Positions 2,095 through 53,513 of a stretch of DNA of 64,000 bases are shown here, piece after piece. A program made the translations under genes and the position numbers. Source of the stretch: Mobula hypostoma (lineage: Eukaryota); the NCBI RefSeq assembly GCF_963921235.1, contig NC_086097.1, positions 8,246,001 through 8,310,000 of the forward strand, read 5' to 3'. The notes under the pieces were generated by a model. The model saw only the letters and a program-made list of their open reading frames with translations, ran no database searches and was not told the DNA's origin. How positions within the stretch are numbered: position 1 is the first letter of the stretch; every line of letters starts with the position of its first letter.

Positions 2095-2380
2095 GAAACA
2101 CAAGAGATCCTGAGATGCTGGAAATCCAGAGCAACATACACAAAATTTTGAAGGAACTCAGCAAATCAGACAGCATCTATGGAGGGGCATCAACCATCAA
2201 TGTTTTGGGCCAAAACCTTTCATTAGGAGTGTAACGGAAGGGGGAAGACACTAGAATAAGAAGGTGGGAGGAGGGGAAGGCATTGACAGTGATAGGTGAA
2301 GCCAGGTGTATGGGAGAAGAGGTATGATATATGATGCTGGGAGGTGGAAAAGGGAACAGACTGGAGAAGAAGGAATCTTC
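2095..2380 (-). mobile_element. Old Penelope-like terminal repeat (pLTR) inside a CR1 3' fragment
   Basis: aaacacaagaga..gatgctggaaatccagagcaaca..cagcatctatgg motif shared with other pLTRs; hammerhead core decayed. Confidence 0.65.
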
Positions 2381-8230: not shown

Positions 8231-8436
8231 CAAACACGAGGGAATCTGCAGATGCTGGAAATTCAAGCAACACACGCAAAAAATGCTGGTGAACACAGCA
8301 GGCCAGGCAGCATCTATAGGAAGAGGTACAGTCGACGTTTCAGGCTGAGACCCTCTCTCGGTCTGAAATGTCGACTGTGCCTCTTCCTATAGATGCTGCC
8401 TGGCCTGCTGCGTTCATCAGCATTTTTTATGTGTTG
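8231..8436. mobile_element. Fold-back mini-Penelope insertion
   Basis: Inverted pLTR arms; TSD atcaggtttattat / atcgggtttattat (8216-8229 / 8437-8450). Confidence 0.85.
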
Positions 8437-14151: not shown

Positions 14152-14384
14152 CAAACACGAGGAATTCTGCAGATGCTGGAAACTCAAGCAACACATATCA
14201 AAGTTGCTGGTGAACGCAGCAGGCCAGGCAGCATCTATAGGAAGAGGTACAGTCGACGTTTCGGGCCGAGACCCTTCGTCAGGAGAGTCCTGACGAAGGG
14301 TCTTGGCCTGAAACGTCAACTGTACCTCTTCTTAGAGATGCTGCCTGGCCTGCTGCGTTCACCAGCAACTTTGATGTGTGTTGC
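14152..14384. mobile_element. Young fold-back mini-Penelope with two back-to-back hammerhead cores
   Basis: Near-perfect inverted arms around ..cgtcaggagagtcctgacg..; perfect 14-bp TSD atgcatctagatgg (14138-14151 / 14385-14398). Confidence 0.9.
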
Positions 14385-15586: not shown

Positions 15587-15884
15587 ACAAGAGAAAATTT
15601 GCAGTTGGTGAAAATCCAAGGAACACACTCAAAATGCTGGAGGAACTCAGCAGGACTGGCTGCATCTATGGAAAGGAGTATAGTTGATGTTTTCTGCCGA
15701 GGCCCCTCAGCAGGACTGGAGAAAAAAAGATAAGGAATGGAGTTAAAAGTCCCCCCACCTTTTAACTTTACTCCCCATCTTTTTTCTCCAGTTCTGTGGA
15801 AGGATCTCAGCCTGAAACAACGACTGTACTCTTTTCCATGGAGGCTGCCTGGCCTGCTGAGTTCCTCCAGCATTTTGTGTGTGT
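15587..15884. mobile_element. Fold-back mini-Penelope (older subfamily)
   Basis: Inverted pLTR arms; direct repeat tatccacagtacaa (15573-15586 / 15885-15898). Confidence 0.85.
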
Positions 15885-17773: not shown

Positions 17774-17982
17774 GCACACACAAAGTTCTGAAGGAAATCA
17801 GCAAGTCAGGCAGCATCTATGCAATGGAGTAAAGAGTTGATGTTTCAGGCTGAGACCCTTCATCAGGACTCCTGACAAACGTCTCAGCCTGAAACATTGA
17901 CTGTTCATTAATTTTCATAGACGCTCCAGCATTTTGCATGTGTTGCTTTGGATTTCCATAATCCACAGAATCTCTTGTGCTT
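17774..17982. mobile_element. Fold-back mini-Penelope (old)
   Basis: gtttcaggctgagacccttcatcaggac|tcctgac..tctcagcctgaaac inverted arms. Confidence 0.7.
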
Positions 17983-20210
17983 AGAAGTAGATAGGCAGAG
18001 TCATTTTTTTTTTGGTGTTTTCACTCGAGCCTGCAATGATCTCATTCATCACACCCCACACTGCTTCCAAACAATCTGATTCACTGTTAGAAACTCACTC
18101 ATGTTAGACGCAGTGCTAAATTGAACTGAACTAAACCAAGCTGAACATTCCTAGACTGTTTCAATGACTCTTTGGTTTGATCTACTATTTTCTGTGTTGT
18201 TTACTCATTTTTTGCCATTTGCTAGATTTGTTCTTTTTTGCTCATTGGGTGTTTGATGTTTTCTTGGAACAGGTTCATTCCACGACATTTTTCTGTTTCA
18301 GGATTCTCTGTGGGGAAGACGAATCTCAGGGTTGTACACTGCATACATACTTTGATAATAAATGTACTTCAAATCTTTGATTTTCTCAATAGTAAACCCA
18401 TAATAGCAGAAACTAAAACAAGAGGAGCAGGGAAAAGCTACATCTCATCATTTAAGATGCCAGCAGCCCTGTGATCATGATAATAATGATTTAATTCTGC
18501 AGGATTTCTCAAAATACAAACAAATTTTTTGGCTTAAGTAATGAAATGGTAAAATAATCTTTGCATTTAAATGACTACATAAATCACTTGCCCTCTTTTG
18601 CTATATAATTGCAAACCTTAGGCCATATTAGAAATTACTAACACACGCCAAGCAATCTGTTATTCTGCAAAACTTCAGCTTGTAATTGTAAATTAGGAGA
18701 CTACAACTGAATTCAAAAATAACTTCAGATGCTCCGGATTTTAATTAATAATCTTCTTGTAAGATTATCTTTTATTGAGGTGATTCTGATCCAAAATAGA
18801 ATTAATTAAAGTATGAATGAGATTACTTTCTGCTTTATCAAAATTTAGTGACCCTGATATTGATAAATGCACAATTTATATTTGGAGTTCTGTTTTTGTT
18901 TTGGAGCATCAGCGAAGAAACCTATAAAGAGATCCAAGCTCTCAGTGCATAGCCTTTGCATAAACTATTCTCATTACAGTAAAGTAGGTTGTGGAAAGGT
19001 GATATGACAAAAGCCATAAAAAATATGAGTGCCGGTATGAAAATAGAAAGGCAAAATATTATGAAACACTTCTCTTGACCCCAGGGCATCTCAAAGCATC
19101 TTGGAGCCAATGAAGTGCTTCACTGAAGTTTCAGAATTTTGCTGTCACATGGTCTTCAAACAATACAGAGGAGATAAAGCCTATCTCCATAACAGCAGGT
19201 TCATTTTGTAGAATATGAGCCAGTGAGGAATTTATATTTACAATTGTTTCTTCCCAGGGGGCTTCTTAATGAAGCCAATAAGGCTGATTCTCAACTATCA
19301 GTGATTCAATAACATGCTCCTAAATGGTGATACTTACTGTACTTAGGTAAACTTCAAGCAAAAGATTATCTAAATTTGAAGGCATATTCACATTGCAGTT
19401 ATTTTCATAAATATGGATATACATTCAATCTACATACACAAGTTATTTTATGTATTTATAGTTATTGTTGTTTTTATTATTATTGCGTTCTTCAGCACCC
19501 CAGCCTTCCGCTCTCCTCTGACACAACCAACCCCTTTGCCCTTCTGTTCCCATTACTCATCTGCGCCGGGTCTTCACCATCCCCTTTGGCCTTTCCCTCT
19601 CTGAGGCAGAACGTTCTGTACTCAGCAAAGGCTGCAGCTTTTGCCATGACTCTTAGCTCTCCTTCCGCCGCCTCAGTTCTTCTTCTGCCCACTTCTCGGT
19701 AAGGACTCTCCAGTCTGTGCTGATGACCACTTTTCACCATCAAACCCGCAGATATAGAGGGTGCAGTAGTAAACTGGCAGAATAACCTCTACATTTCTAG
19801 GGCCAGGCAACAACAGTCAGATACCTCCTCTTTCTTATCCCTTGAACAGGACCCCACTAAAGCGCACCAGGCCATTATCTCCCACACCACTGGTCACATC
19901 ACTGACTTTACTAACTTTGGGGATATCCCATCCACTGCCATCAACTTTGTAGTTCCCTCACCCAGCATCTCCCGGTTCTACCTCCTACCCAAGATCCACA
20001 GATCTGCCTACCCAGGTTGACCAATTGCTCTGCGTGTTCCTGTCCCACTGAACTTATATCTGCGTACCTCAACTCAGTTTTAGCCCCCTTGGTTCAGTCT
20101 CTTCCTACCGACATCCATAACACTTCACATGCTCTAGAATTTTTAAATGATTTTCAGTTCCCTGGCTCTGATCATCTTATTTTCACTATGGATGTCCAGT
20201 ACCTATGAGT

Positions 20211-21880
20211 CCATAAGACATAGGAGCAGAATTAGGCCATTTGGCCCATCAAGTGTTCTCCACATTCATTTGTCGCTGATCCTTTTTTCCCCTCCTCAGC
20301 CCCACTCCCCAGTCTTCTCCCTGTAGCATTTGATGTTGTGTCCCATTAAGAACCTATCAAGCTCTGCCTTAGATATACCCAATGACCTGGCCTCCACAGC
20401 TGTCTGTAGTAACAAATTCCACAAATTCACCACTCTCTGGCTAAAGAAATTTTTCTGCATCTCCATTTTAAATGGACAGCTCTCTATCCCGAGGCTGTGC
20501 CGTATTGCCCTCAATTCCCCTGCCATGGAAAACATCCTTTCCACAACTACTCTGTCTAGGCCTTTCAACATTCCAAAGGTTTCAATGAGATTCCATCCCA
20601 CCCCCCCATACACATCGTTTCAAATCCCAATGAGTATAGACCCAGAGCCACCAAACTTTCCTTGTATGATAACCCTTTCATTACCGGAATCATCCTTGTG
20701 AACCTCCGCTGAACCTTCTTCAATGCCAGCACATCTTTTCTCAGATGAGGAGCCCAAAAACTTACACAATACTCAATGTGGAGCTTCATAGTGTCTTATA
20801 TAGCCTCAGCATCACATCCCTGCTCTTGTATTCAAGTCCTCTTGAAATGAATGCTAACATTGCATTTGCTTTCCTCACCACCAACTCAACCTGCAAGTTA
20901 ATCTTTAGGATATTCTGCACAAGGACTCCCAAGTTCCTTTGCATCTTAGATTTTTGGATTTTCTCCCTGTTTAGAAAATAGTTTGCACATTTATTTCTAC
21001 TGACAAAGTGCATGACAATGCATTTTCCAACATTGTATTTCATTTGCCACTTTCTTGTCCATTCTCCTAATCTATCCAAGTGTTTCTGCAGCCTACCTGT
21101 TTCCTCAAGACTACCAGCCCCTCCACCAATCTTCATATCATCTGCAAACTTGGCAACAACATCTATTCCCTCATTGAAATCATTAATTTACAACATAAAA
21201 AAGCAGTCCCAACACCAATCCCAGTAGAACACATTCGTCACTGGCAGCCAACCAGAAAAGGATCCATTTATTCCCACTTGCTGCCTCCTACCAATCAGCC
21301 AATACTCTAACAATCTTAGTATCTTTCCTGTAATACCATGGGCTCTTAACTTGGTAAGCAGCCTGATGTTTGGTACCTTGTCAAAGGCCTTCTAAAAATC
21401 CAAATATACAATATCTACGGCATCCCCCTTATCTAACCTACTTGTAGTCTCCTCAAAGAATTCCAACAGGTCCATTAGGCAAGATTTTCCCTTAAGGAAA
21501 CCATGCGAACTTTGTCCTATCTTGTCCTGTGTCACCAAGTATTCCATAACCTTATCCTTAACAATTGACTCCAACATCTTCCCAACCACTGATATTAGGC
21601 TAACTTGTCTATAAGTTTCTTTCTGCTGCATTCCTCCTTTCTTAAAGAGTGAAGTGACATTTGCAATTTTCCAGTCTTCTGGCACCATGCCAGAGTCCAA
21701 TAAATTTTGAAAGATTATTACTAACGCCTTAACTCAACCTAGAAGGATTCAACCTCTTCCAATCCTATGTCACAGCTTTCTATTGATACGATGCTATTCT
21801 TTATCAGCAGAAGGACTCCAACCCCTCTGCCTACCTTCCTATCCCCACAATATAATGTGTAACCTTGGAAATACAACCAC
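20211..21880 (-). mobile_element. CR1 LINE ORF2 3' portion inserted in the Penelope RT
   Basis: VPEDWKIANVTSLFKKG..SCL.DLLEFFEE..VDIVYLDF; WQMKYNVGKC; tail ccataagacataggagcag. Confidence 0.9.
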
Positions 21881-22699
21881 ACACCTCCATCTCCTACCAG
21901 GAAGCTTTGTTTTTCTTTCTGGACACCAGACCCAACCAATTCTTCTCCACCACCACTCTCCTCCATCTGGCAGAACTAGTCCTCATTTCTCAATAATTTC
22001 TCCTTCAGCTCCTTCCAACATAAGCTGTAGTCATAGGCTCTCGCTTGGGTTCGAGCTATATTTGCCTTTTTGTTGGCTACGTGGAGCAGCCTATGTTCCA
22101 AGCCTATACTGGAATCACTCCCCAACTTTTCCTATGCTACGTCGATGACTGCATTGGGAGCCCATGCAGAGATTATCAACTTCATCAACTTTGCCTCCAA
22201 CTTCCACTCCGGCCTCAAATTTACTTGGCCTATTTCTGACAACTCCCTCCCCATTCTCGATCTCTCTGCCTCAATCTCTAGAGACATCTTACCTACTGAT
22301 GTCATTTATAAACGGACTGACTCTGTCATGGTCCGGATCAGGGTCCCTTTAAATTTACCTTGTTTATGTTACGATCCGGACTGTTTATTCCCTGTTTTCC
22401 TGTGTCCCTCGACTTTGGTGATTAGAGGCAATTAACGCTCGGGTCGCGGGAGCGTCTGCAAAGTCACGGCGTGCCAATGTCATCTGGCCGGAGCAAGCCT
22501 TGTTTCCGCCCGAAGCGAGTGCCGGTAATTCACCTTTCCTCACCGGAGCAACCCTGTCCAGTTACCTCGCTGAAGCGAGCCTGCAAAGTTTCCTCATCAA
22601 GGTGGGTCCGTCAGTTAACCCGCTCGAGAGAATCAAGAGCCGCTGTCTACTGTTCCCGGGCCGAGTCGAGAGCTCGGCACTACCCGAAGGTTCCAAGCG

Positions 22700-23068
22700 C
22701 CATGTTCTGGCTCCGGCGGCATCCAAGTATCACGTCCACGTCCTGGCTCCGGCGGCATCCAAGTACCATGCCAAATCCTGGCCCTGGCGGCGTTCTAGTA
22801 CCATGCCAAATCCTGGCCCTGGCGGCGTTCTAGTGCCATGTCAAGTCCTGGCCCTGGCGGCGTTCTAGTGCCATGCCAAATCCTGGCTCCGGCGGTGTCC
22901 AAGTACCATGCCAAGTCCTGGCCCTGGCGGCGTTCTAGTACCATGCCAAGTCTTGGCCCTGGCGGCGTTCAGGTACCATGTCAAGTCCTGGCCCTGGCGG
23001 CATTCAGATACCATGTCAAGTCCTGGCCCTGGCGGCTTCCCAGTTCTGAGTCAAGTCCTGGCCCTGGC
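22700..23068 (+). repeat. ~35-bp GC-rich minisatellite, about 10 copies
   Basis: Unit ctagtaccatgccaaatcctggccctggcggcgtt. Confidence 0.9.
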
Positions 23069-23214
23069 AGTCTGTGATTCCTGTCCTATCCCCTTGTCTG
23101 AATCCCTTCTCTGCCCCTCTCACCCCTAGCCCTCATCTGCAGCCCTCGCCTGCACCTCGGTCTAGTTCTATTGCCGGAGCTAGACAGGTACTGTCTGGTG
23201 TTCATTCGTGTTGG

Positions 23215-23415
23215 TCATCTTGTCTTGTCCTCGCCTCCGTGGAGTAAGTCAGGCCATCTTGCCGTTGCCCCGCGGGGAGTCATGTCTTGTCTTGTCCTGT
23301 CCTCGCCTCCGTGGGGTAAGTCAGGCCGTCTTGCCGTTGCCCCGTGGGGAGTCATGTCTTGTCTTGTCCTGTCCTCGCCTCCGTGGGGTAAGTCAGGCTG
23401 TCTTGCCGTTGTCCC
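23215..23415 (+). repeat. 72-bp tandem repeat, about 2.7 copies
   Basis: Unit gtcctcgcctccgtggggtaagtcaggccgtcttgccgttgcccc..; seen as a 24-aa repeat in ORF 23171-23674. Confidence 0.9.
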
Positions 23416-24296
23416 GCTGAGTGTCATGAGTCCCAGCCCTATGTCCTGTACCCAAGGAGGGGTCCCGACTCTGTGTTTTGTGTATGTGTCCATGGTTCCA
23501 TGTACCTGCTCTCCCGAGACCGAGGCTCTGTGCTCCCATGTTCCTCCTCTCCCTAGCCCATGTCATGTCCAGGCCTGGTTCTGGGGTCCGAGCCCGAGGC
23601 AAGACCCAGGTACTGTGTCCTTGCCCAGTCTCGGGCTCGGAGTCCATACCCTAGCCTCTTCATGTCTCCTCTAGTTCTGGGAGCCAATTCCGAGTCCAAG
23701 CCCAGACCCTTGGTCCCAGCCTAGTCGTAGACCTGAGTCCCTGTCCAGTTTGCTATTTCCTGCTCCTGCCTTGCTCTCCTGGTATCGAACAATAAACTAA
23801 ATCTAAGTAACCTCACAAGATGGGTCTTGCATTTGGGTCCACCCTTGCTCCCAATGCCCTGCCATTGTGACAGACTCTCACAGTTGTCTGGACTATACTT
23901 CTTCCCACACTGTTACTTGTAAAAATGCAATTCCCTCTTCTCAATATCTCTGTGTCCACCGCATCTGCTCTCAGGATGAGGCTTTTAATTCCAGAAATAA
24001 GGAGATGTCCTTTTTCATCCCTTCCTCCACCATCAACACTGCCCTCAACCACATCTCTTTCATTACGCGCGTGTCTGCCCTCACCCTATCTTTCTGCCAC
24101 TGCACCAGGGATAGGGCTCTTGTTGTGCTCAACTACCACCCCACCAGCCTCTGCGTCCAGCACATAATTCTCTAATTCTCCAAAACTTCTGCCATGTTCA
24201 ACTGGATTCACCACCAAGCACATCTTTCTCTCCCCTGTACTTTCTGCTTTCAGGAGGATCGCTCCCTATGTAACTCCCTTGTCCCTCCCCAGGAGC

Positions 24297-25080
24297 TTAG
24301 TCATGATGGCACTAAACAGCGACTCCTTTGCCTGCATCTTCGGAAACAGCACTATTGCCATCTTTAATATCTCTATCTTTCCTTTTCTGGGTTCTTTTGA
24401 GGACCCTGACCTGGAGTTACATGCTGACTTTGGTTCTTTGCAGAAGTGGGATCTGCTCTCGGGGTTTCATGGCTCACTGTTATTCGACATGCCAAGGATG
24501 TGGCCTAAGAACTTTGCTCGCTTTCAGGGGTCCTAACCTTTGGGAGACAGGCGGATCGAAGGTTGGTGTCCCGGCAGAAGATTGATGTGTCGTGGGAGTC
24601 GGAAGATCTATGGCTGTGTGCCCAGAGATCCGATATCTTTGGGCACAGAGCTCGGAAAGAGTGACGCAACAGACTTTTAACCACATAAACCAGCGAGTTG
24701 TTTGTTATGTCTCCCCTCTCACTGTGAAACAGGGACACCTCCTTTTCCCTTATTAGGGAGAGAGCCTGTGGTATGTTGAATACCAGGTGAACGAGTAGTC
24801 TTTGGGGTACTGCAAGTCTGTGTCTTTGCTGTTGCTTTGCTGCACGCTTGAGTGCTCTGTAATGGGTGCTGATGCTTTTTTTGCCAGAGGGGGGAGGAGG
24901 TGGATCTCTGCTTACACGCGGGAGGAGGTCCTGGGGGGCGGGGGGACTTCGGGTTTTAACATTTAAATGTCATTCATTCTTTGGGGGTTCTCCTCTATTT
25001 TCGTGGATGGTTGTGAAGAAAAAGCATTTCTGGATGTATATTGTATATATTTTTCCGACATTAAATGCACCTTTGAAACC
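24297..25080 (+). mobile_element. ~0.8-kb non-coding retroposon (second copy 56194-57307, -)
   Basis: End-to-end similarity between the copies (atggcactaaacagcgac..gaccctgacctggagttacatgctgactt..gacattaaat..acctttgaaa). Confidence 0.8.
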
Positions 25081-26179
25081 AACTGATCACCCTCCTGGCA
25101 CTTATCCTTGTAAGTGGAACAAGTGCTACACCTGTCCCTGCACCTCTTTCCCTCACTACCATTCAGGGCCCCAAACAGTCCTTGCAGGTGAGGCAACACT
25201 TCACCTGTGAGTCTGTTGGGGTTATCTATTTTATTTGGTGTGGCCTCCTGTATATTGATGAGACCCGTCATAGATTGGGATTCACTTTGCTGAGCGCCTG
25301 CCAGAAAAAGTGGGATCTCCCAGTGGCCATCCATTTTAGTTACACTTCCCATTACCTTTCGGATATGTCTATCCATGACTTCCTCTACTGTTGTGATGAG
25401 ACCACACTCAAGTTGAACCAGAGGTTGTTGGGGGTGGGGGGGCGGGGGTCATTACCAGAAGTTCGAGAAATCGATGTTTATGCCATCAGGTTGGAGGCTC
25501 CCCATTTTATTCCACCTGGAGAAGCCTCTAACCTGATGGCATAAACATCGATTTCTCCAACTTCTGGTATTGCTCCTCCCCCCACCTCTGGTTCACTATT
25601 CTCCATTCCCATTTCACACTCTCACCTTATCTCCTTGCCCGCCCATCACCTCCCTCTGGTGCTCCCCCCTTTACTTTCTCCCATGGCCTTCTGTCCTCTC
25701 CTATTAGATTCCCCCTTCTCCAGCCCTGTATCTCTTTCACCAATCAACTTCCCAGCTCTTTACTTCACCCCTCAATCCTCCCAGTTTCTCCTATCACCTA
25801 CTATCTTATATTTCTTCCTCCCCTCCCCCCACCTTCTTACTCTGACCCCTCATCTTTTTTCCTCCAGTCCTGATGAGGGGCCTCAGCCTGAAACTTCGCC
25901 TGTCTACTCTTTCCATAGAAGCTGCCTGGCACTTCTGCGTTCCTCCAACATTTTGTGTGTGTTTCTGGGATATCCAGCATCTGCTGATTTTCTCTTGTTT
26001 GTGAGTGGAAAAGGCCCTTCTGGCCCATCAAGCTGTACTGTCTAGCAATGCACCCATTTAACATTAACCTAATCAGAGGACAGCTTACAATGACTGTTTA
26101 ATCTACTAACAGCACATCTTAGCTCTGTGGGGGTAACCCGAAGCAACTGGAGGAAACCCACACCCTCACTGGAAGGACA

Positions 26180-27406: not shown

Positions 27407-27712
27407 AATACAAGAGATTCTGCAGACTTTGGAAATTGAGAGCAACACACACAAACAAAATGTTGGAGGCACTCAGCAGATGAGGCAGTATCTATAGAAG
27501 GGAATAAGCATTCGAGAAGACCCTTTTGGGAGAAGACCCTTCATCAACACTGGAAATGAAGGAAAGAAGAACGCAGAGTATTCTGATTTTATTCTGGTGT
27601 ATTCCTCCTTCCTTTCCAATCCTGAAGAAGGGTCTTGGCCCAAAACGTTGACCATTGATTCACTTTCATAGATGCTGCCTGACCTGCCGAGTTCCTCCAT
27701 CATTTTGTGTGA
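27407..27712. mobile_element. Fold-back mini-Penelope (old)
   Basis: Inverted pLTR arms with decayed hammerhead cctgaagaagggtcttggcccaaaacgttgac. Confidence 0.7.
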
Positions 27713-38989: not shown

Positions 38990-39810
38990 GGACACACAAT
39001 AGACAGCATCCTAAAATGCTACATCACTACATGGTACGGAAACTGCAGTGTGAAAGAGAGGAAGGTTCTACCTCGGGTAGTCAAAAATATCTAACACATC
39101 TCTGGCACCAACCTAGCTGCCATCAAGGACATACAGTATATACAGAAAGGTGTTGGTAAACCAGGCAACATCATGAAGGCTCCCACCCACCCTGCTCATG
39201 GACTGTTTGTCCCATACACACTGGGGAGGAGGCTAAGTAGTGTCCGTGCCAGGACCACCAGACTCAATAACAATTTCTTTCCTCAAACAGTAAGACTGTC
39301 AACACTTCCACCCACAAACAAGAAAAAAATCTGTAGTTGCTGGAAATCCAAGCAACGCACGCAAAATGCCGGACGAACTCAGCAGGCCAGGCAGCATCTA
39401 TGGAAAAAAGTACAGCCGACGTTTCGGGCCGGGATCCTTCGGCAGGACTGCTAACAGGTCTCAGCCTGAAACGCCGACCGTACTTTTGTTCTGTAGATGC
39501 TGCCTGGCCTGCTGACTTCCTCTAGCATTTTGTGTGTGCTGCCTGAACATCTCCACCCACTGACCACACTCACAACCACCAATTACTTTATCATTTCCTG
39601 TCAGTCACCTTGTGTACAGCCCAGAGTCACTTTATGAACATGCAATTAATCCATGTATAGAAGCTATCTTATGAATTATATTTATTGTATTTTTATTATT
39701 GCAGTCTTTACCTTATTGTGTTTTTTTGTGTTGCTTCAGATCTGGAGTAACAATTATTTTGTTCTCCTTTACACCTGTGTGCTGGAAATGGCATTAAACA
39801 ATCCTGAATT
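38990..39810 (+). mobile_element. Old Rex1-like LINE 3' fragment; similar relics at 43530-44385 (-), 44655-45020 (-), 59400-59910 (-)
   Basis: MKAPTHPAHGLFVP..GRRLSSVRARTTRLNNNFFPQTVRL. Confidence 0.7.
39316..39545. mobile_element. Fold-back mini-Penelope
   Basis: Inverted arms; ~15-bp TSD aacacttccacccac / aacatctccacccac. Confidence 0.8.
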
Positions 39811-40479: not shown

Positions 40480-40935
40480 AAACTCAGGTTGGAGGAGCTA
40501 CCCACAAATTCTATTTAGGTAGCATCCAACCTATGGCATGAACATAGACTTGTGGCAATAACTTCCAGTAATACTTTTCCCTTCCTCTTTCCTCTTCTTT
40601 AATTCCTCATTTTGGCCCCCTCTTATCACTTCTCTTCATCTGCCTATCATCTTCCCCTGGGGCTCCTCCTCCTTCCCTTTATCCAATGGTCCATCTCTTC
40701 TCCTACCAGATTCTTTCTTCTTCCACACTTTACATTTCCACCTATCACCTCCCAGCTTCATAATTCACCCCCTCATCCCCACCCACCTGATTTCACCTAT
40801 CTTCTTGTACCTTCTACTCCTTCCCTCTCCCCCACCCTCTCCAGCTTTTTATTCTGGCTTCTTCTCCTTCCTTTCCAGTCCTGAAGAAGGGTCTCGGCTC
40901 AAAACATCGACTGTTCATTTATTTCAATAGATGAC
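40480..40935 (+). mobile_element. Penelope 3' end (GIY-YIG C-terminus and pLTR); other copies at 45085-45700 (-) and 52870-53242 (+)
   Basis: ctcaggttggaggag..ggtagc.tccaacct.tggcatgaacat, polypyrimidine tract, cagtcctgaagaagggtctcggctcaaaacatcgactg. Confidence 0.75.
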
Positions 40936-43137: not shown

Positions 43138-45879
43138 TCACTGATCAAGATCAACTTCCATTACTGCCTGTATGGAGTTCGTACATTCTCCTCATGACTG
43201 TAGATGCTTCTGCTCTGTGCTCCAGTTTCCTCCCACATTCCAAGCACACAGGAGTAGGGTTTGTGTACAGTGCTATGCTGGCACAGGTAGCCTGGTGACA
43301 CTTGTGGGCTGTCTAGTACAACCCTCATTGACTTGCAGTGACACAAATAACACATTTCACTGTAAGTTTCGATGTTTCAATGTAGTAAAGATAATCCATA
43401 AAGATCTTTAGAGATCTTTTAAAGATCTTTAATCCTTAAAGATTTTTATATTGCTTTGTTAATGAATATCTATTCTTTTTAATTTTTCGACATTTTAATC
43501 TCCATATTAACACATTTAATTCTTTTAAAAGAATCAGAATCAGGTTTGTTGTCACTGGCATATGTCACAAAATTTGTGGTAGCAGTACTTTGCAATACAT
43601 AATAATAAGAACAGTATTATTGTAAATTAGAGTAAGAATATTTATTATTGATAATAAATACATTAATTAATTATTGATATAATTAATCATAATTTTATGG
43701 TTAAATATATGAATAAATAAATTATTGATAATAAATGTACTTTGAATCTTGAAATATATAAATATTTTTTGAAAAGTTAAATTAAGTAAGTAGCATAAAA
43801 ATAGAAATAAAAATGCAGTGAGGTAACATTCATGGGTTCAGTGTTCATTCAGAAATCTGATGGGAGAATGGGAGAAGCTGTTCCTGAATTGTTGAGTGTG
43901 TGCCTTCAGGCTCCTGTAACTTCTCCCTAAGGGCAGTAATGAGAAGAGAGCATGTCCACGGTGATGGGTATCCTTAATGATGATGCTGCCATTTTGAGAT
44001 TTTGCTCCTTGATGATGTCCTGGATTCTGGAAAGGCTAGTGCCCACGATGGAGCTGAATGAGCTCGCAATATTACGCTGCTTATTTCAATCCAGTACAGT
44101 GATACCACCAGCCCAGCCCCCTCCCTCCCCCATACTACACAGTGGTGTAACCAGTTATAATGTTCTCCACAGTACATTGTAGGAATTTGTGACTGTCTTT
44201 GGTGACGTACAAATCTTCTCAAACTCCTAATGAAATATAGCTGCAGTCATGGCTTCTTAGTAAGTGCATGAAAACGTTGAGCCCAGGATAGATCCTCAGT
44301 GATGTTGACACCTAGGAACTTGAAATTGCTCACCCTTTCCACTTCTGATCCCTTGATGAGGACTAATATGTGTTCCCGTGTCGAGGGCTGATGTCTATGC
44401 CCTTGTCTTGCCCATTCTGAACTCCATGATCAATTCCAGACCATCTTTGTATATTTGAGGTTCTTTTGGATGCATAGGAAAGAGCCTTAGGACATCTGCT
44501 TTTGGTATCTGTGGCAAATCTGTGTGGCTATTCCTCATGTCATCAATAACCCAGAGAATCCTTTGTTCTTGCACCAATATTCTATTCTGAGATAAGGAGA
44601 ATTTCTCAGAAATCCTTCATCAACGTTTGTAAATTCCACTTCTTTTCAAGGGATTAGAATCAGAATCAGGTTTAATATCACTGGCATATGTTGTGAAATT
44701 TGTTACGTTAATGGCAGCAGTACATAGCAATATATAATAATAGAGAAAAAAGCTGTGAATTGCAGTAGGTATATCTTTTAAATAGTTATAGTATGTAATG
44801 CAAAAACAGAAATAAAAGAGGTAGTGAGGTAGTGTTAATGGGCTCAATGTCCGTTCAGATATCAAATGGCAAAGAGGAAGCAGTTTCTGAATCATTGATA
44901 AGTGCCTTCATCCTTTTGTACCTCCTTCATGGTGCTAATGAGATGAGGGCATGTCCTGGGTGGTGGGGACCCTTAATGATGGACACTAACTCTCTGAAGC
45001 ACTGCTCCTTGAAAATGTCTTTCAGAGATTATTGGGTAATATAGAAGCATAATATGACTATTCCAGCAAACCACAGGAATCTTTAACACAAGAGATCTGT
45101 AGATGCTAGAAACCCAGAGCAACACACACAAAATGCTGGAGGATCTCAGCTGGTCAGACAGCATCTATAGAAATGAATAAACAGTCAATATTTCAGGCCA
45201 GGACCCTTCATCGGGACTGGAAAGGAAGGAGGAAGAAGCCAGGATAAGAAGGTGGAGGGAGGGGAAAAAGTACGTGCTGGAAGGTCATAGGTGAAGCGAA
45301 GTGGGTTGGGGGGGGGAGTAAGTAAGAAGCTTACAGGAGATAGGTGGTAGAGATGGAATCTGATAAGAGAGGAGAGTGGACCTTTGGAGAAAGGGAAGGT
45401 GGAGGGGCACCAGGGAAAGACGATGGGCAGGTGAGGAGAAAGGTAAGAGATTAAAATGGAGAATAGGAGAAGGGGGAAGGAGAGTTGGAGAAATCACAAG
45501 ACGCTCAAGGAATCAGTGTTCATGCCATAAGGCTGGAGGCTAGCCAGATGGAATATGAGGTGTTGCTCCTCTAACCTCATCATGGCAGTAGAGGAGGCCA
45601 TGGACCAACTGGTCGGAATGGGAATGGGGATTGGAATTAAAATGGTTAGCCACCAGGAATTTTGCTTTTTTTTTGGATAGAGTGAAGGTACTCAACATCT
45701 CAAAGTATTTTCCAGCTTCCAGTTTATTCAGGCATATTGAATTTTGTAAAACCAGATTATATTTTCCAGATAATAAAATTGACGTTTTAGTATAAAAGAT
45801 CATGGACTAAATTGGACGATATTACTAATTCCTTTCAAACACAATGGTTGACATGGTAATCTCTTCAGTCACGTTAATG

Positions 45880-47168: not shown

Positions 47169-47206
47169 CAGTCGACGTTTCGGGCCGAGACCCTTCGTCA
47201 GGACTA
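47169..47206 (-). ncRNA. Minimal type-I hammerhead ribozyme motif (intact core)
   Basis: UAGUC-CUGACGA-A-GGGU(CUCG)GCCC-GAA-ACGU-C/GACUG: stem I UAGUC:GACUG, stem II, palindromic ACGU stem III, GUC cleavage triplet. Confidence 0.8.
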
Positions 47207-47771
47207 ACTGGAAGAAGAGATAGTAAGAGATTTGAAAGTGGGAGGGGGAGGGGGAGATCCAAAATGATAGGAGACAGGAGAGGAGGGATGGATCTAAGAG
47301 CTGGAGAAGAGAGAGGTTCATAGGATGGGAAGCCTGGGGAGAAAGAGAAGGGGGGAGGGGAGCCCGGAGGGTGGAGAGCAGGCAAGGAGTTATAGTGAGA
47401 GAGACAGAGGGAGTAAAAAGAGAGAGAGACCGTTTCGCTGAACACCTTTGCCCTGTCCGCCAGAGAAAGCAAGATCTCCCAGTGTCCACACATTTAAATT
47501 CCCCATCCCATTCCCATTCTGATATGTCTATCCACGGCCTCCACTACTGTCAAGATGAAGCCACACTCAGGTTGGAGGAACAACACCTTATATTCTGTCT
47601 GGGTAGCCTCCAATCTGATGGCATGAAGATTGACTTCTCTAACTTCCGTTAATGCCCCTCCTCCCCTTAGCACCCCATCACTTACTCATTTATTTTATGT
47701 ATTTTTTATTTTTTCCCCCTTTTTTTCTCTCCCTCTTTATTCTCCCTGTGTCCCCCTCACTATAACTCCTT

Positions 47772-48006
47772 CAAACAACAGGAATTCTGTAGATGCTGGA
47801 AATTCAAACAACACACATCAAAGTTGCTGGTGAACACAGCAGGCCAGGCAGCATCTCTAGGAAGAGGTACAGTCGACGTTTCAGGCTGAGACCCTTCGGC
47901 AGGACTAACTGAAGAAAGAGTGAGTAAGACATTTGAAAGTTGGAGGGGGAGGGTCCTAGAGATGCTGCCTGGCCTGCTGCGTTCACCAGCAACTTTGATG
48001 TGTGTT
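47772..48006. mobile_element. Mini-Penelope inserted in a Penelope pLTR
   Basis: 13-bp TSD actataactcctt (47759-47771 / 48007-48019); inverted arm. Confidence 0.9.
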
Positions 48007-48350: not shown

Positions 48351-51300
48351 CTATTGGCTCAGGGTGTCTGACCCTCCAAGGGAGGAGTTGTAAAGTTTGA
48401 TGGCCACAGGCATGAATGACTTCCTATGATGCTCCACGTTCCATCTCAGTGGAATGAGTCCTTGGCTGAACGTACTCCTGTGCCCAACCAGTCCATTATG
48501 TAGTGGATGGGAGACATTGTCCAAGATGGTATGCAACTTGGACAGCATCCTCTTTTCAGATACCACCGTCAGAGAGTCCAGTTCCATCCCCACAACATCA
48601 CTGGCCTTACGAATGAGTTTGTTGATTCTGTTGGTGTCTGCCACCCTCAGCCTGCTGCCCCAGTACACAACAGCAAACATGATAGCACTGGCCACCACAG
48701 ACTTGTAGAACTCCCTCAGCATCGTCCGACAGTTGTGAAGGGACCTCAGTCTCCTCAGGAAATAGAGACGGCTCTGACCCTTCTTGTAGACAGCCTCAGT
48801 GTTCTTTGACCAGTCCAGTTTATTGTCAATTTGTAACCCCAGGTATTTGTAATCCTCCACCATGTCCACACTGACCCCCTGGATGGAAACAGGGGTCACT
48901 GGTGCTTAAGCCCTCCTCAGGTCTACCACCAGCTCCTTAGTCTTTTTCACATTAAGCTGCAGATAATTCTGCTCACACCATGTGACAAAGTTTCTTACCG
49001 CAGCCCTGTACTTAGCCTCATCTCCCTTGCTGATGCATCCAACTATGGCAGAGTCATCAGAAAACTTCTGAAGACAACAAGACTCTGTGCAGTAGTTGAA
49101 GTCCGAGGTGTAAATGGTGAAGAGAAAGGGAGACAAGACAGTCCCCTGTGGAGCCTCAGTGCTGCTGATCACTCTGTTGGACACACAGTTTTGCAAGCAC
49201 ATGTACTGTGGTCTGCCAGTCAGGTAATCAAGAATCCATGATACCAGGAAAGCATCCACCTGCATCGCTGTCAGCTTCTCCCCCAGCACAGCAGGGCGGA
49301 TGGTGTTGAACGCACTGGAGATGTCAAAAAACATGACCCTCACAGAGCTCGCTGGCTTGGTCAGGTGGGCGTAGACATGGTTCAGCAGGTAGACGATGGC
49401 ATCCTCAACTCCTAGTCGGGGCTGGTCGGCGAACTGGAGGGGATCTAAGTGTGGCTTAACCATAGGCCGGAGCAGCTCCAGAACAAGTCTCTCCAGGGTC
49501 TTCATGATGTGGGAGGTCAATGCCACCGGTCTGTAGTCATTGAGGCCGCTGGGGCGCGGCGTATTCGGCACAGGGACGAGGCAGGACGTCTTCCACAGCA
49601 CGGGATCCCTCTGGAGACTCAGGCTCAGGTTGAAGACATTGCAAAGTACTCCACATAGCTGAGGGGCACAGGCTTTGAACACCCTGGTACTGACACCATC
49701 CGGTTCTGCAGCCTTGCTTGGGTTGAGTCGTTTCAACTGTCTTCTCACCTGTTCAGCTGTGAAGCCCACCGTGGTGGTTTCGTGTGGGGAAGGGGTATAG
49801 TCATGAGGGCAGGGTGGGGGACTGTGAGGAGGGGTAGGAAGGGAGAGTGGAATATGTGTTGGTTGGGGGCTGACAACAGATGACACATGTGGGGGATGGG
49901 CAGGGGCCACAATGTTAAATCTGTTAAGGAACAGGTTAACAACAGGAATTCTGCAGATGCTGGAAATTCAGGACGAAGGTTCTCGGCCTGAAACGTCGAC
50001 TGTACCTCTTCCTAGAGATGCTGCCTGGCCTGCTGCGTTCACCAGCAACTTTGATATATGTTGAAGGAACAGGTTAAGTTCGTTGGCCCTGTCCACACTG
50101 CCTTCAGCTCCTCTGTTGCTAGTTTGCCGGAACCCAGTGATGGTCCTCATCCCACTCCAGACCTCTCTCATGTTGTTCTGTTGGAGTTTCCACTCAAGCT
50201 TCCTCCCATACCTGTCTTTAGCCTCCCTGATCCTGGCTTTCAGGTCCCTGAATATTACCCTCAGCTCCTCCCTATTTCCAAATGTAAACGCCCTCTTTTT
50301 AGCGTTCAGGATGTCCTTAATGTCCTTTGTTACCCATGGCTTGTTATTTGAATAACAAAGGACAGTTCTTGTCGGAACATTGAAGTCCACACAGAAGTTG
50401 ATGTAACCAGTGATGCACTCTGTGAGCCCATCAATATCCTCTCCATGTGGCTCACAGAGTGCCTGCCAGTCTGTCACCTCAAAACAACCCTGGAGCGCCT
50501 CATAAGCCTCCTCTGACCATTTCCTCACTATCCTCAAGGTTGCAGGTTTACTCTTCACCAGAGGCATGTAGCAGGGTTTTAGATGCACCAGGTTGTGATC
50601 TGACCTTCCCAGTGGGGGGAGGGGAGAGGAGCTGTATGCATCCTTAACGTTAGCGTACATCAAATCCAGAGTCCTCTCCCCTCTGGTTGAACAGCTCACA
50701 TACTGTGTGAAGTTGGGCAGTGTTCTAGCCATGGTAACCTGGTTGAAGTCACCCGAGATGGTAATGACGGCACTTGGGTGCTGGGTTTGTAATCTGGCTA
50801 TGACGGTGTAAATGATGTTACACGCCAACGTCGGGTTGGCAGAGGGAGGGATGTACACAACAACCACAATTGCATGTGAGATTTCCCTTGGCAAATAATA
50901 TGGCCGGAGTCCAACAGCAAAAAGTTCAATATCCGGGCTACAAACACGTTCCTTGATCATAATATGACCAGGATTGCACCATCTGTTGTTTACCAGAACA
51001 GCAAGCCCACCTCCTTTACGCTTACCGCTCTCAGTGCAATTCCGGTCAGCCCGAATGGTCTGGAAGCCCTCTGTGGAAATGTTTTGATCGGGTATGTCCT
51101 CGTGCAGCCACGTTTCAGTAAAACACATAACACTGCTCTCCGGAAATGTTCTCTGACTCCTGGCTAGCGCTGTCAACTCGTCCATTTTATTACCCAGTGA
51201 TCTCACATTGCCCGTAATGAGAGAGGGGAGACATGGCTTATAACTTCTCTTCTCCATAAGCCCCTGTTGTCTCGACCCGGTCCTCTTCCCTCGCCTTTTT

Positions 51301-51506: not shown

Positions 51507-53513
51507 GTTAGAGAGGGTGCAGCTTCAATGTGTTACCCTGAAAAAAAATAACAAATAATGTAAGTTAAAAAAGTTTAAAAAGTAAGAAAAGTAAGAAAAC
51601 TAGACAGACCGACTGTAACAGGCTGCATGTATGACTAGCGCATGCGCACAATATGACCCCTGACGAAGGGTCCCAGCCTGAAACGTCGACTGTACCTCTT
51701 CCTATAGATGCTGCCTGGCCTGCTGCATTCACCAGCATTTGTTGTGTGTATAATGAACAAACTGTTAATCACCTGGATGGCTGAATATTTCTTGGATTTT
51801 TGTTACAGAGAAACTAGAAATAAACATAGCTTATGTAGTTACAAACATTGTTGTGCTGGTTGTGGTTATTCTTGTTTACGAGATTGACTCCAGTTGGCTC
51901 TGAAGCAGGGCACATAAATCACTGAGAGTGCCTTTGTAAATCTGAGTGATAAAACCATGACAATCCTGTAGCAAGTCACTTATAGAACAGGAATTAAAAA
52001 GCAGCATCACTTTTTGCGTTCTATAATAGACCATATTGCTCATTAATATCAGAGGGCAAAATAGGAATCTTCAAAGAAATTCCTGTCAGACTTCATCACC
52101 TCCAAGTACACTGACAGATAATGAAGTGAATTATATAAATGTCATATAATTACTCATTCACAGTGTAAGAAACACATGTAGCAGACTTAAAGCAAGCAAA
52201 TGCAAATCAGAGTTACTCTTATTCCAGACATGTAATTAACGTCTCTTCCAAAAATTAATCCGTGGTAGTTTCTTTTCTCTGCATTGGTTAAGTAATTAGC
52301 TGAGCAGAGCAGTTTGAACAAAGGTAAGTGGGTATCACACAACTGTGACAGAATATTCAATGCCCCATTTCTTCACTCAGTGAGTCTCTCTTTCACCCAT
52401 CAGGGATACTTATCAAGAACGCTGCCTGCACTGGGCCCTTAGCATTTTCAGTGATCCCTCCCATTCACCCAACAACCCTTTTGACTGCTAACCATCAGGC
52501 AAGAGGTATCAAAGCATTAGGCCAAGCATTATTATGATAGAAGACAGCTTCTTCTGCAGGCTCTAAGACTTCTGAACTTCCTGCCACTACCCAGGTCTCA
52601 TCACCATGAAGTGCCAATAGCATTATATTGTTTACTTTTAAACCTGCGTCGTAAATACACCTTATTATTTGTTAATTTATTTGTGATAATCATACATCAT
52701 GTGCTGTGTATGTGAGTTATACATACCGGGTTGTGCACATGGTCCTGAGGAACATTGTTTCATTTGGCGGTATACATAAGGCCAATTGGAGTAAATAAAA
52801 TTAACTTGAACTTATACAATGAAATGACTTATTTCTCAACAGAAACCAAGCATTAGTCAAAAGAACAACCTCTTTTATTTATTTATTTTTTTCCCCTTTT
52901 TTTTCTCTTTCTGTCCCTCTCACAATTACTCCTTGCCTGCTCTCCATCTTCCTCTGATGCTCCCCTCCCCGTTCCTTTCTCCCTAGGCCTCCTATCCCAT
53001 GATCCTCTCCCTTCTACAGGCTTGTATCCCTTTTACCAATCAACTTTCCAGCTCTTAGCTCCATCCCTCCCCCTCCTGTCTTCTCCTATCATTTCGGATC
53101 TCCCCCTTTCTCTCCCACTTTCAAATCTCTCTTCTTTCAGTCAGTCCTGATGAAGAGTCTCGGCCTGGAACGTCGACTGTGCTTTTTCCTATGGATGCTG
53201 TCTGGCCTGCTGCATTCCACCAGCATTTTGTGTGTGTTGCTCGCCTCCTTTTAGTTCTGTTTTTGACTGACATGCTTTCTTTTGAACGTAAAATGATTCA
53301 GGCATACTCCCCCGCAAAATCGTAATTACACCTTGCTCTCATCCATGGCATGTCAGCAAGGCTCATAACTTTAGGATTATTATAACACTGAATGGAAAAT
53401 ATGGATTTTTTTCCTTTCTTCTAACAGGAAAAAGAAACAATCTTTAGTAAAGTAAAGATTCTATTGTGCTGCACAGGAAGGTAATTAGAAATAAAGGCAA
53501 ATAATTAGATGTA

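What the first reader, a model, noticed from the sequence alone, without database searches (positions are those of the whole stretch)
47169..47206. Dispersed minimal hammerhead ribozymes at very high density
Seen: the motif (c/t)agtc-CTGANGA-AGGGTCTCGGCCC-GAAACGTC-gactg or decayed versions occurs more than a dozen times in 64 kb. Cores are intact at 47169 (-) and 58886 (-); mutated or truncated at ~14255, 14290, 17840, 25865, 27620, 39415, 40876, 45182, 47870, 49972, 51660 and 53142. Known: PLE pLTRs carry minimal type-I hammerheads whose stem III is reduced to a short palindrome (here ACGU) and which cleave as dimers. Inference: this genome likely holds a very large number of such motifs, and tandem same-strand copies in a host pre-mRNA could dimerise and cleave it or release circularisable RNAs.
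Basis: partly seen in the sequence, partly recalled or inferred. Interest (0 to 1): 0.72.

Follow-up and report, generated by a model that had tools for sequence, protein, structure and literature searches.

The report
Penelope retroelement tails carrying minimal hammerheads
The repeated motif is the small hammerhead-ribozyme module already known from the ends of Penelope-like jumping genes, here amplified to an unusually high copy number, and most copies are decaying leftovers rather than working parts of the host genome.

Summary
The window has 21 copies of the motif (0 expected by chance).

The motif meets the published description of the minimal type-I hammerhead (min-HHR) of Penelope-like elements (PLEs). 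It lies about 300 nt after the stop codon of a reverse transcriptase + GIY-YIG endonuclease frame and 100 nt before the end of the insertion.

Genome counts (3.48 Gb):
- 74,952 copies with at most 1 mismatch in the 28-mer.
- 6,605 exact 34-mers.
- By extrapolation, a few hundred thousand copies in all.

Copies take the usual PLE forms: 5'-truncated tails, head-to-head inverted pairs, and about 132-nt hammerhead+tail units with target-site duplications.

- 25 of 100 sampled copies break within 9 nt upstream of the core.
- 2 of 100 break near the predicted cut site, so the copied RNAs were uncut.
- 61 of 98 sampled copies carry U at position 11.1.

Same-strand neighbours are not enriched, and old copies decay as fast in the core as in the tail. 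The host pre-mRNA cleavage idea therefore has no support. Cleavage itself was not tested. Verdict: a new member of a known kind.

The parts
47169..47206 (-). Focal minimal hammerhead. Helix I 5' strand 47202-47206, CUGACGA + unpaired A + helix II (GGGU/GCCC, loop CUCG) + GAAA-CGUC 47174-47201, helix I 3' strand 47169-47173. Predicted cut between 47174 and 47173.
   Evidence: features compared with PMC4209133
47074..47168 (-). Rest of the 100-nt tail, from the cut site to the 3' end of the insertion.
   Evidence: Alignment of copies; contigs of four runs leave the stretch at 47074 (table 7)
47207..47429 (-). C/T-rich 3' UTR piece of the same 5'-truncated PLE copy.
   Evidence: blastn to a long genomic PLE copy: element positions 3036-3399 match window 47429-47079
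47426..47768 (+). Inverted partner arm (end of the endonuclease frame plus start of the UTR), lying head to head with the focal copy.
   Evidence: element positions 2753-3078, 83% identity
58790..58921 (-). Short hammerhead+tail unit of about 132 nt, flanked by a 9-bp target-site duplication. Its motif at 58890-58917 is structurally whole but has U at 11.1 and a loop change.
14255..14282 (-). Exact 28-mer core; left arm of a head-to-head palindrome. Helix I 5' strand lost.
   Evidence: (listed as G000:C1:8260272-8260300)
14290..14317 (+). Right arm of the same palindrome. Core intact, U at 11.1, G1.1 changed to A.
17839..17898 (.). Older head-to-head pair: 17839-17866(-) and 17871-17898(+), both decayed.
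39418..39475 (.). Head-to-head pair: 39418-39445(-) and 39448-39475(+), both with core mutations.
15686..15821 (.). Older head-to-head pair: 15686-15713(-) and 15794-15821(+), both with core mutations.
8234..8434 (.). Palindrome whose centre lies inside helix II. The motif at 8334-8361(-) has lost CUGANGA.
47875..47902 (-). Young copy with UTR and tail, but A6 changed to C.
49970..49997 (+). Copy joined inside CUGA to an inverted piece of the tail end.
51660..51687 (+). Core intact, but the element starts at -1, so helix I is lost (1 bp).
53147..53174 (+). Copy with UTR; A13 changed to G and one helix II pair lost.
19496..25998 (+). Old, interrupted, nearly full-length PLE (74-81% identical to a young copy). 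It ends in a decayed motif at 25870-25897.
27622..27649 (+). Decayed older copy (G12 changed to A). A weaker inverted partner lies at 27520-27547(-).
40881..40908 (+). Decayed older copy (G12 changed to A).
45187..45214 (-).
2199..2226 (-). Strongly decayed older copy.

Best explanation
**What it is.** The motifs are the minimal hammerhead module in the terminal non-coding part (3' UTR, hammerhead, 100-nt tail) of one very successful Penelope-like retrotransposon family. [quoted passage not shown] That is the Neptune/Nematis type as judged by the linker.

**Why it is so dense.** The density is a by-product of that family's amplification. Reverse transcription starts at the tail end, so nearly every insertion keeps the hammerhead, however 5'-truncated it is.

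**How the arrangements arise (inferred).** Priming on both strands of the target, as reported for another PLE, gives head-to-head inverted pairs. Many cDNAs end just upstream of the hammerhead core, giving about 132-nt hammerhead+tail units with target-site duplications and tight palindromes. I infer that an RNA 5' end lies there, most likely a transcription start inside the terminal repeat, as in Drosophila Penelope.

**After insertion.** The copies decay neutrally.

**Function.** Whatever the hammerhead does, it does it in the element's own RNA, probably with help from the element's protein. The RNAs that were copied into the genome had not been cut.
For: **Motif anatomy.** It matches the published min-HHR features: both catalytic boxes, an unpaired base between positions 9 and 10.1, ACGU with no loop 3, and a 5-bp open helix I (PMC4209133 parts 1-2).

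**Upstream coding frame.**
- A GIY-YIG match (E 6e-5, 23.7 bits against a cut-off of 22.6) ends about 300 nt before the core.
- One long copy has a 997-aa open frame with RVT_1 (E 2.6e-4) and GIY-YIG (E 8e-4).
- All 150 scored genome matches to the endonuclease piece are 91-100% identical to it. They were drawn from 226,230 first-look candidates.

**Counts, with 0 hits for every reversed-pattern control.**
- 74,952
- 65,741
- 50,444
- 6,605
- 4,760

**Hallmark PLE arrangements.**
- 12 of 16 close pairs are head to head.
- There are 1,027 tight palindromes in the genome.
- 5 of 7 short units examined have 9-13-bp target-site duplications.
- 25 of 100 sampled copies break at -9..0 from the core, against 0 at -17..-10.
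- These arrangements are described for PLEs in PMC8557442 (passages). Cleavage and extension of both target strands is described in PMC11167929 (passages).

**Uncut templates.** 98 of 100 tails run on into the hammerhead.

**Neutral decay.** In 19 old copies, non-CpG change is 0.148 in the core against 0.167 in the tail.

**Other organisms.** The same repeat is present in thousands of contigs in each of four runs from four coded organisms.
Against: - No Rfam hammerhead model matches, even at E up to 10.
- Self-cleavage was not tested and could not be.
- The RVT_1 score (21.2 bits) is below Pfam's cut-off (29.6).
- No direct terminal repeat or tandem unit was seen in the two 9-kb loci examined. 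The one 5' end seen carries an inverted copy of about 50 nt of the tail end instead.
- Helix II has 4 bp, not the 6-8 bp reported for several PLE families.
- 61 of 98 sampled copies have U at 11.1, which breaks the conserved G10.1-C11.1 pair.
- The predicted monomer fold pairs GACG (positions 5-8) with CGUC (15.2-17), at -15.3 kcal/mol against -9.5 for the hammerhead-like fold.
- The transcription-start explanation of the 5' break hotspot rests on no RNA data.
- The flank classes and pair orientations were counted by eye on the first 100 listed places of one contig.
Confidence: 0.88

Rival explanations
1. Host-level ribozyme action. Sense-strand copies inside host pre-mRNAs pair up, cut the transcript or release circular RNAs, and so affect host gene expression.
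For: There are thousands of whole motifs: 6,605 exact 34-mers and 9 whole motifs in 264 kb. Some host transcripts must therefore contain two. Dimeric min-HHR constructs showed some, though low, cleavage in vitro (PMC4209133).
Against: - Same-strand neighbours are not enriched: 2 of 16 close pairs, against 12 head-to-head.
- No tandem arrays hold the motif.
- Old copies decay at the same rate in the core and the tail.
- The two strands are equally represented in the genome, 37,380 against 37,572.
- The ACGU duplex is predicted to be weak, -1.7 kcal/mol.
- In another PLE, cleavage needed the element's protein, and no RNA-seq reads ended at the cut site (PMC11167929).
- An inverted neighbour in the same transcript would fold into a long hairpin rather than a double hammerhead (inference).
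Confidence: 0.06
2. In this family the motif is kept for a role other than cutting, for example as a structured 5'-proximal handle for the element's protein or reverse transcriptase. It has little or no self-cleaving activity.
For: - The commonest form has a G-U wobble at 10.1-11.1 (61 of 98). The TG:CA imbalance is 59 to 3, while the other CpG in the motif is balanced at about 10 to 12. This points to a subfamily state rather than decay.
- Copied RNAs were uncut (98 of 100).
- The predicted monomer fold locks up part of the core.
- Published min-HHRs cut poorly (PMC4209133). Hammerhead mutants did not affect insertion in vitro (PMC11167929). PLE clades without hammerheads proliferate well (PMC8557442).
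Against: - All invariant core bases are kept between the young and old subfamilies. The only core difference, 1 of 14, is a CpG transition.
- In young copies the core varies less than the tail, 3/178 against 76/1463.
- The same architecture is kept across animal PLEs (PMC4209133).
- A related PLE hammerhead does cut when its protein is present (PMC11167929).
Confidence: 0.25
3. The copies are non-LTR retrozymes: non-autonomous tandem repeats that spread through small circular RNAs cut out by hammerheads.
For: A short non-coding unit of about 132 nt carrying the hammerhead is itself mobile (target-site duplications). Retrozymes are proposed to derive from PLE terminal repeats (bioRxiv 10.64898/2026.07.22.740005, Results read).
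Against: - The units are dispersed singles or inverted pairs, not head-to-tail arrays.
- Unit ends lie upstream of the core and at the tail end, not at the cut site as a cut-and-ligated circle would give.
- The same sequence continues into the PLE UTR and coding frame in 75 of 100 copies.
Confidence: 0.03

Closest known systems
Minimal hammerheads (min-HHR) in the terminal repeats of metazoan Penelope-like elements (Cervera and De la Pena 2014, PMC4209133; parts 1-2 read)
   Same: CUGANGA and GAAA boxes; an unpaired base between positions 9 and 10.1; helix III reduced to a 4-nt palindrome; a short open helix I; location next to an RT + GIY-YIG frame; mostly single, scattered copies; paired motifs on opposite strands; one sequence family per element family.
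   Different: - Helix II has 4 bp, against the 6-8 bp described for Schistosoma and D. virilis.
- Most copies have G-U at 10.1-11.1.
- The copy number is far above the roughly 4,000 (coelacanth) and 9,000 (Xenopus) reported there.
- Sequence heterogeneity is low: only one family was found in 264 kb.
Poseidon element PAc of Anolis carolinensis (PMC11167929; passages read)
   Same: A hammerhead in the terminal repeat close to the 5' part of the element's RNA. Reverse transcription starts at a defined site that sets the genomic 3' end. Both target strands are cut and extended, which would explain the head-to-head pairs. Uncut RNA is the main template, and here 98 of 100 tails run on into the hammerhead.
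   Different: In PAc the coding frame starts inside the hammerhead. Here the motif lies about 300 nt after the stop codon, and no direct upstream repeat was seen. No biochemistry was done here.
Penelope of Drosophila virilis (as described in PMC4209133 and PMC8557442; passages read)
   Same: In Penelope the terminal repeat holds the transcription start, and an intron ends at the 5' edge of helix I. Here a branch-point-like, pyrimidine-rich, CAG sequence and a TCAGTT initiator-like word sit at the same place. Inverted or direct terminal repeats are common to both.
   Different: The D. virilis hammerhead has a 2-nt helix III insertion, a bulged helix II and a 2-bp helix I. Neither an intron nor a transcription start has been shown here.
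Non-LTR retrozymes of animals (PMC7229834 passages; bioRxiv 10.64898/2026.07.22.740005, Results)
   Same: A type-I hammerhead on a short non-coding mobile unit that depends on an autonomous element. The axolotl, with up to 120,000 copies, shows a comparable scale.
   Different: Retrozymes are head-to-tail arrays with canonical hammerheads (loop-loop contacts) that give circular RNAs. Here the units are dispersed or inverted, minimal, and bounded away from the cut site.

Membership tests
min-HHR of Penelope-like elements | Catalytic boxes CUGANGA and GAAA, and a UH cleavage triplet, in type-I order | tested here: met
   The focal copy has all of them. 9 of 43 sampled copies pass the full descriptor; 0 pass in the reversed and shuffled controls.
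min-HHR of Penelope-like elements | An unpaired nucleotide between A9 and G10.1 | tested here: met
   There is an A at 47194. The feature is listed in PMC4209133.
min-HHR of Penelope-like elements | Conserved G10.1-C11.1 pair | tested here: inconclusive
   Met in the focal copy. However, 61 of 98 sampled genome copies have U at 11.1, giving a G-U wobble.
min-HHR of Penelope-like elements | No loop 3; positions 15.1-16.1 form a palindrome, so that two motifs can build helix III | tested here: met
   The sequence is ACGU. The duplex is predicted to be weak, -1.7 kcal/mol.
min-HHR of Penelope-like elements | Short open helix I (4-5 bp) | tested here: met
   5 pairs including one G-U.
min-HHR of Penelope-like elements | Longer than usual helix II (6-8 bp). 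This is typical of the described families but is not part of the search descriptor. | tested here: not met
   4 pairs (GGGU/GCCC) with a 4-nt loop.
min-HHR of Penelope-like elements | Lies in the terminal non-coding repeat of an element with RT and GIY-YIG | tested here: met
min-HHR of Penelope-like elements | Site-specific self-cleavage (as a dimer or with protein) | not testable with these tools
   No RNA run is on record. The runs laid were contigs only, which cannot show RNA ends.
Rfam hammerhead families (types I, II, III, HH9, HH10) | Covariance-model score at or above the gathering threshold | tested here: not met
   0 matches in the window at gathering threshold. No hammerhead match even at E up to 10 on 47120-47260.
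Penelope-like elements, EN+ (Neptune/Nematis type) | One frame with RT followed by a C-terminal GIY-YIG endonuclease | tested here: met
   A 997-aa open frame matches RVT_1 (E 2.6e-4, below the cut-off) and GIY-YIG (E 8e-4). A separate fragment matches GIY-YIG above the cut-off.
Penelope-like elements, EN+ (Neptune/Nematis type) | CX2-5CxxC linker upstream of GIY-YIG | tested here: met
   C-KRNK-C-YT-C was read by eye in the translation. The feature is described in PMC8557442.
Penelope-like elements, EN+ (Neptune/Nematis type) | Heavy 5' truncation and an adjacent inverted 5'-truncated copy | tested here: met
Penelope-like elements, EN+ (Neptune/Nematis type) | Partial tandems forming direct pseudo-LTRs | tested here: inconclusive
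   Not seen in the two 9-kb loci examined.
Penelope-like elements, EN+ (Neptune/Nematis type) | RT groups with PLE/telomerase RTs in a phylogeny | not tested
   No reference PLE proteins were on hand.
Non-LTR retrozymes | Head-to-tail tandem units, each with a hammerhead | tested here: not met
   No tandem array in the window holds the motif. Only 2 of 16 close pairs are same-strand.

The most novel reading that the evidence does not exclude
In this family the hammerhead works less as a cutter than as the head of a short mobile RNA. An RNA 5' end, either a transcription start or a processing site, lies 2-8 nt upstream of the core. This gives an RNA of about 132-140 nt (hammerhead plus tail) that the element's reverse transcriptase copies uncut and at very high frequency, either singly or from both target strands. 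On this reading the hammerhead+tail unit is in effect the genome's most prolific SINE-like element, and the motif is retained as a protein or RT handle. That would fit the success of the subfamily with a G-U wobble at 10.1-11.1.
Probability: 0.22. Interest if true: 0.55.

Novelty: new member of a known kind. Interest (0 to 1): 0.33.

Why it matters
It adds a very large, young, low-diversity family to the known PLE hammerheads, in a vertebrate-like genome (CpG observed/expected 0.30). The density of near-exact motifs is about 21 per Mb. The axolotl retrozymes come to roughly 4 per Mb, calculated from the published 120,000 copies and 28.21 Gbp.

Because the copies are so many and so similar, the genome itself records what the element's machinery did:
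- where cDNAs ended (a hotspot at the 5' edge of the hammerhead);
- that templates were uncut at the ribozyme site;
- that a form with a weakened 10.1-11.1 pair spread most.

These footprints bear on an open question in the field: what the hammerhead is for in PLEs. They also give concrete constructs to test. For annotation, thousands of 'intact ribozymes' in such genomes should be read as retroelement tails, not host ribozymes.

Tried and rejected
- **Rfam.** Nothing at gathering threshold in the window. Nothing relevant at E up to 10 around the focal copy.
- **RNA evidence.** No RNA holder is listed for the stretch. The four runs laid were contigs only, so they give no information on RNA starts, ends, strand or expression.
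- **More genome sequence.** Genome-wide junction statistics therefore rest on whole-genome pattern counts and on the first 100 listed places (about 4-5.6 Mb of contig 1).
It was shortened to 35 places.
- **Other hammerhead families.** A general min-HHR descriptor found only this one family in 264 kb. Helix covariation between families therefore could not be tested.
- **Preferential conservation.** Majority bases of 18 young and 19 old copies differ at 3 of 38 hammerhead positions, 16 of 95 tail positions and 5 of 45 UTR positions. The trend goes the expected way but is not clearly significant. I estimate Fisher p at about 0.3; this was not computed in a call.
- **Type-III reading.** A fold with the cut upstream of the core was checked by eye and does not pair.
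- **Splicing at the CAG before helix I.** None of the 100 flanks shows a shared upstream exon, so this was rejected as the source of the short units.
- **Cut-RNA templates.** They would give tails starting at G1.1. At most 2 of 100 do.
- **Earlier notes of this scan.** Look-ups by place and by sequence gave nothing for this genome.
- **Host gene context.** Pfam on the 17 longest frames of the window found only a LINE. No host exon was identified, so strand bias in introns could not be tested.
- **Literature.** Searches for 'hammerhead ribozyme' with 'cartilaginous fish' (1 paper, unrelated) and for 'Penelope' with 'shark genome' and 'transposable elements' (3 papers) turned up no description of this family. 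Supplements were not opened; those of PMC4209133 list more vertebrate motifs and could hold a relative.

Full report
**1. The observation**

Read on the minus strand, window 47169-47206 is:
- a 5-nt helix I strand;
- CTGACGA;
- one extra A;
- GGGTCTCGGCCC (a 4-bp stem with a 4-nt loop);
- GAAAC, then GTC;
- the complementary helix I strand.

Chance controls:
- The 28-mer occurs 11 times in the window at up to 3 mismatches; 100 shuffles gave none.
- The 16-mer core occurs 18 times against a shuffle mean of 0.14.
- My own Hamming scan gives 19 copies at up to 7 of 27 mismatches. The reversed pattern gives none at up to 8.
- With two offset or weaker copies, the window holds 21.

Most changes from the reference motif are CG-to-TG or CG-to-CA transitions, as expected in a genome with CpG observed/expected of 0.30.

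Only 47174-47201(-) and 58890-58917(-) keep the core, helix I, helix II and the palindromic 15.2/16.2 pair together. The copy at 14255(-) has an exact core but has lost one helix I strand.

**2. What carries the motif**

Aligned copies share much more than the hammerhead:
- a conserved tail that ends 100 nt after the predicted cut site;
- in many copies, a C/T-rich stretch upstream.

In genome copies that extend further upstream, an open frame ends about 300 nt before the core. It matches GIY-YIG above Pfam's cut-off.

One long copy, used only to read the domain order, has a 997-aa open frame. It matches RVT_1 weakly and GIY-YIG, and carries a C-x4-C-x2-C linker. PMC8557442 gives that linker as a mark of the Neptune and Nematis clades (passages).

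The endonuclease piece has 226,230 first-look candidates in the genome. All 150 that were scored are 91-100% identical to it.

The window also holds an old, interrupted, nearly full-length copy at 19496-25998(+). blastn to the long copy covers 8.0% of the window and 3.15% of 200 kb of random genome.

**3. How many**

The genome is 3.48 Gb in 200 contigs.

| Pattern | Copies |
|---|---|
| 28-mer, at most 1 mismatch | 74,952 (37,380 + 37,572 by strand) |
| 18-mer core, exact | 65,741 |
| Start of the tail, exact 24-mer | 50,444 |
| 34-mer spanning 3 bp of helix I on each side, exact | 6,605 |
| 37-mer, exact | 4,760 |

Every reversed-pattern control gave 0.

In 200 kb of randomly chosen genome I found 24 copies at up to 7 mismatches. 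This extrapolates to roughly 4 x 10^5 copies. That figure is an inference from a small sample.

For comparison, published figures are:
- about 4,000 and 9,000 min-HHRs in coelacanth and Xenopus (PMC4209133);
- up to 120,000 retrozyme copies in the much larger axolotl genome (PMC7229834).

**4. Fit to the known class**

Cervera and De la Pena (PMC4209133, parts 1-2 read) define PLE min-HHRs by:
- the two catalytic boxes;
- a base between positions 9 and 10.1;
- the G10.1-C11.1 pair;
- a palindromic 15.2-16.2 with little or no helix III;
- a short helix I;
- location in PLE terminal repeats;
- many solitary copies, with some pairs on opposite strands.

The focal copy meets all of these. Two things differ. 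Helix II has 4 bp rather than 6-8. And 61 of 98 sampled genome copies carry U at 11.1.

At that CpG the TG:CA imbalance is 59 to 3. At the other CpG in the motif it is about 10 to 12. I therefore read U11.1 as the state of a major subfamily, not as decay. This is an inference.

Rfam's hammerhead models do not see the motif at all. That is expected for a hammerhead without helix III. It does mean that membership rests on the published descriptor, not on a curated model.

**5. Arrangements**

*The 17 bases upstream of the core.* I classified them by eye in the first 100 listed copies:

| Class | Copies |
|---|---|
| Continue into the UTR | 75 |
| Joined to an inverted PLE piece | 15 |
| Joined to unrelated DNA | 7 |
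| Unclear | 3 |

All 25 breaks lie within 9 nt of the core. None lies in the next 8 nt.

*Short units.* Of seven short copies examined, five have 9-13-bp target-site duplications directly abutting positions -7 to -2 and the tail end. The hammerhead+tail unit of about 132 nt is therefore a complete insertion product.

*Pair orientation.* Among the same 100 copies, 16 neighbour pairs lie within 3.5 kb: 12 head to head, 2 convergent, 2 on the same strand. Chance would give about 2, 2 and 4. The genome holds 1,027 tight palindromes with 0-12 nt between two cores.

*Match to the literature.* Heavy 5' truncation and an adjacent inverted 5'-truncated copy are described hallmarks of PLEs (PMC8557442). 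The Anolis element cuts and extends both target strands (PMC11167929). That would produce such head-to-head pairs.

*The focal copy.* It is itself one arm (47074-47429, minus) of such a pair. The other arm is 47426-47768(+).

**6. Evidence on function**

- *Uncut templates.* If cut RNAs were reverse transcribed, tails would begin at G1.1. In the first 100 tails listed, 98 run on into the hammerhead and at most one breaks at the cut site. The templates were therefore uncut. This agrees with the in vitro result that unprocessed RNA is the main substrate (PMC11167929).
- *Folding.* The predicted monomer fold pairs GACG of the core with CGUC at the cleavage triplet (-15.3 kcal/mol). The hammerhead-like fold scores -9.5 and the ACGU duplex only -1.7. 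Protein help would therefore be needed, as reported for PAc.
- *Decay after insertion.* Non-CpG change in 19 old copies is 0.148 in the core, 0.167 in the tail and 0.296 in the UTR. In 18 young copies it is 3/178 in the core against 76/1463 in the tail. Subfamily majorities differ at 3 of 38 hammerhead positions against 16 of 95 tail positions. This fits constraint on the source elements and none on inserted copies.
- *Other organisms.* The repeat, with the same hammerhead, fills thousands of contigs in each of four runs from four coded organisms. Within the motif only CpG-transition variants reach 10% in the rows shown (15 further rows were not shown).

**7. The 5' break hotspot**

A reverse-transcriptase block caused by the hammerhead itself should stop cDNA downstream of the motif, not just past it. 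I therefore favour an RNA 5' end a few bases upstream of the core.

[quoted passage not shown] That intron ends at the 5' edge of helix I (PMC4209133).

Here the same spot carries two words: TCAGTT, and a branch-point-like, pyrimidine-rich, CAG word. I recognised both by eye and from recall; neither was tested.

An alternative is a pause at a small upstream hairpin (ACUAAC paired with GUUAGU, seen by eye). No RNA data were available to decide.

**8. Verdict**

The motif is a PLE min-HHR, and the predicted very large copy number is confirmed.
- The suggested host role is unsupported by arrangement, decay and folding, and remains untested at the RNA level.
- This is a new, exceptionally abundant member of a known kind.
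- The points worth a specialist's attention are the genomic footprints: the break hotspot at the 5' edge of the motif, the uncut templates, and the dominance of the U11.1 form.
- Earlier notes of this scan on other shark-like genomes reached the same classification. I treated them as leads only.

Noticed in passing
window 48215-51521 (-): A LINE: frames matching an AP-endonuclease-type domain (weak), RVT_1 (E 3e-24) and the ALKBH8_N-type C-terminal motif. It ends in an (ATGACT)n-like microsatellite near 48215-48235, and PLE fragments are inserted right at that microsatellite. This fits the reported microsatellite insertion bias of PLEs.
   Followed up: partly
window 22699-23068 and 23218-23428: Two tandem arrays (35-bp unit x 10.5 copies; 72-bp unit x 2.9 copies) lie inside a roughly 1.5-kb insertion that interrupts the old PLE copy.
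   Followed up: no
window 47207-47235 (-), and most young copies: Directly upstream of helix I there is a TACTAAC-like word, a pyrimidine run and CAG, which looks like a 3' splice site. The word TCAGTT looks like an initiator. ACUAAC can also pair with GUUAGU to make a small hairpin that competes with helix I. All three were seen by eye.
   Followed up: partly
genome copies listed: U at position 11.1 in 61 of 98 copies, with a TG:CA imbalance of 59 to 3. The other CpG in the motif is balanced. The most prolific subfamily therefore seems to carry a G-U wobble at the normally conserved G10.1-C11.1 pair.
   Followed up: partly
L021 (reverse complement) 3341-3398: The 5' end of the one long copy examined starts with an inverted copy of about the last 50 nt of the tail. 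That copy therefore has short terminal inverted repeats rather than a direct upstream repeat. A second inverted copy also abuts its 3' tail.
   Followed up: partly
window 47174-47201 (-): With C at position 7, GACG (positions 5-8) is complementary to CGUC (15.2-17). GUCGAC across the cut site is a 6-nt palindrome with a predicted duplex of -7.5 kcal/mol, stronger than the ACGU helix III palindrome. Both would compete with the active fold.
   Followed up: partly
one search run list: Words of the repeat part of the stretch are held by 24 runs from 15 coded organisms, none with more than 0.30 of the words. This suggests the family, or close relatives, is spread over many related species.
   Followed up: partly
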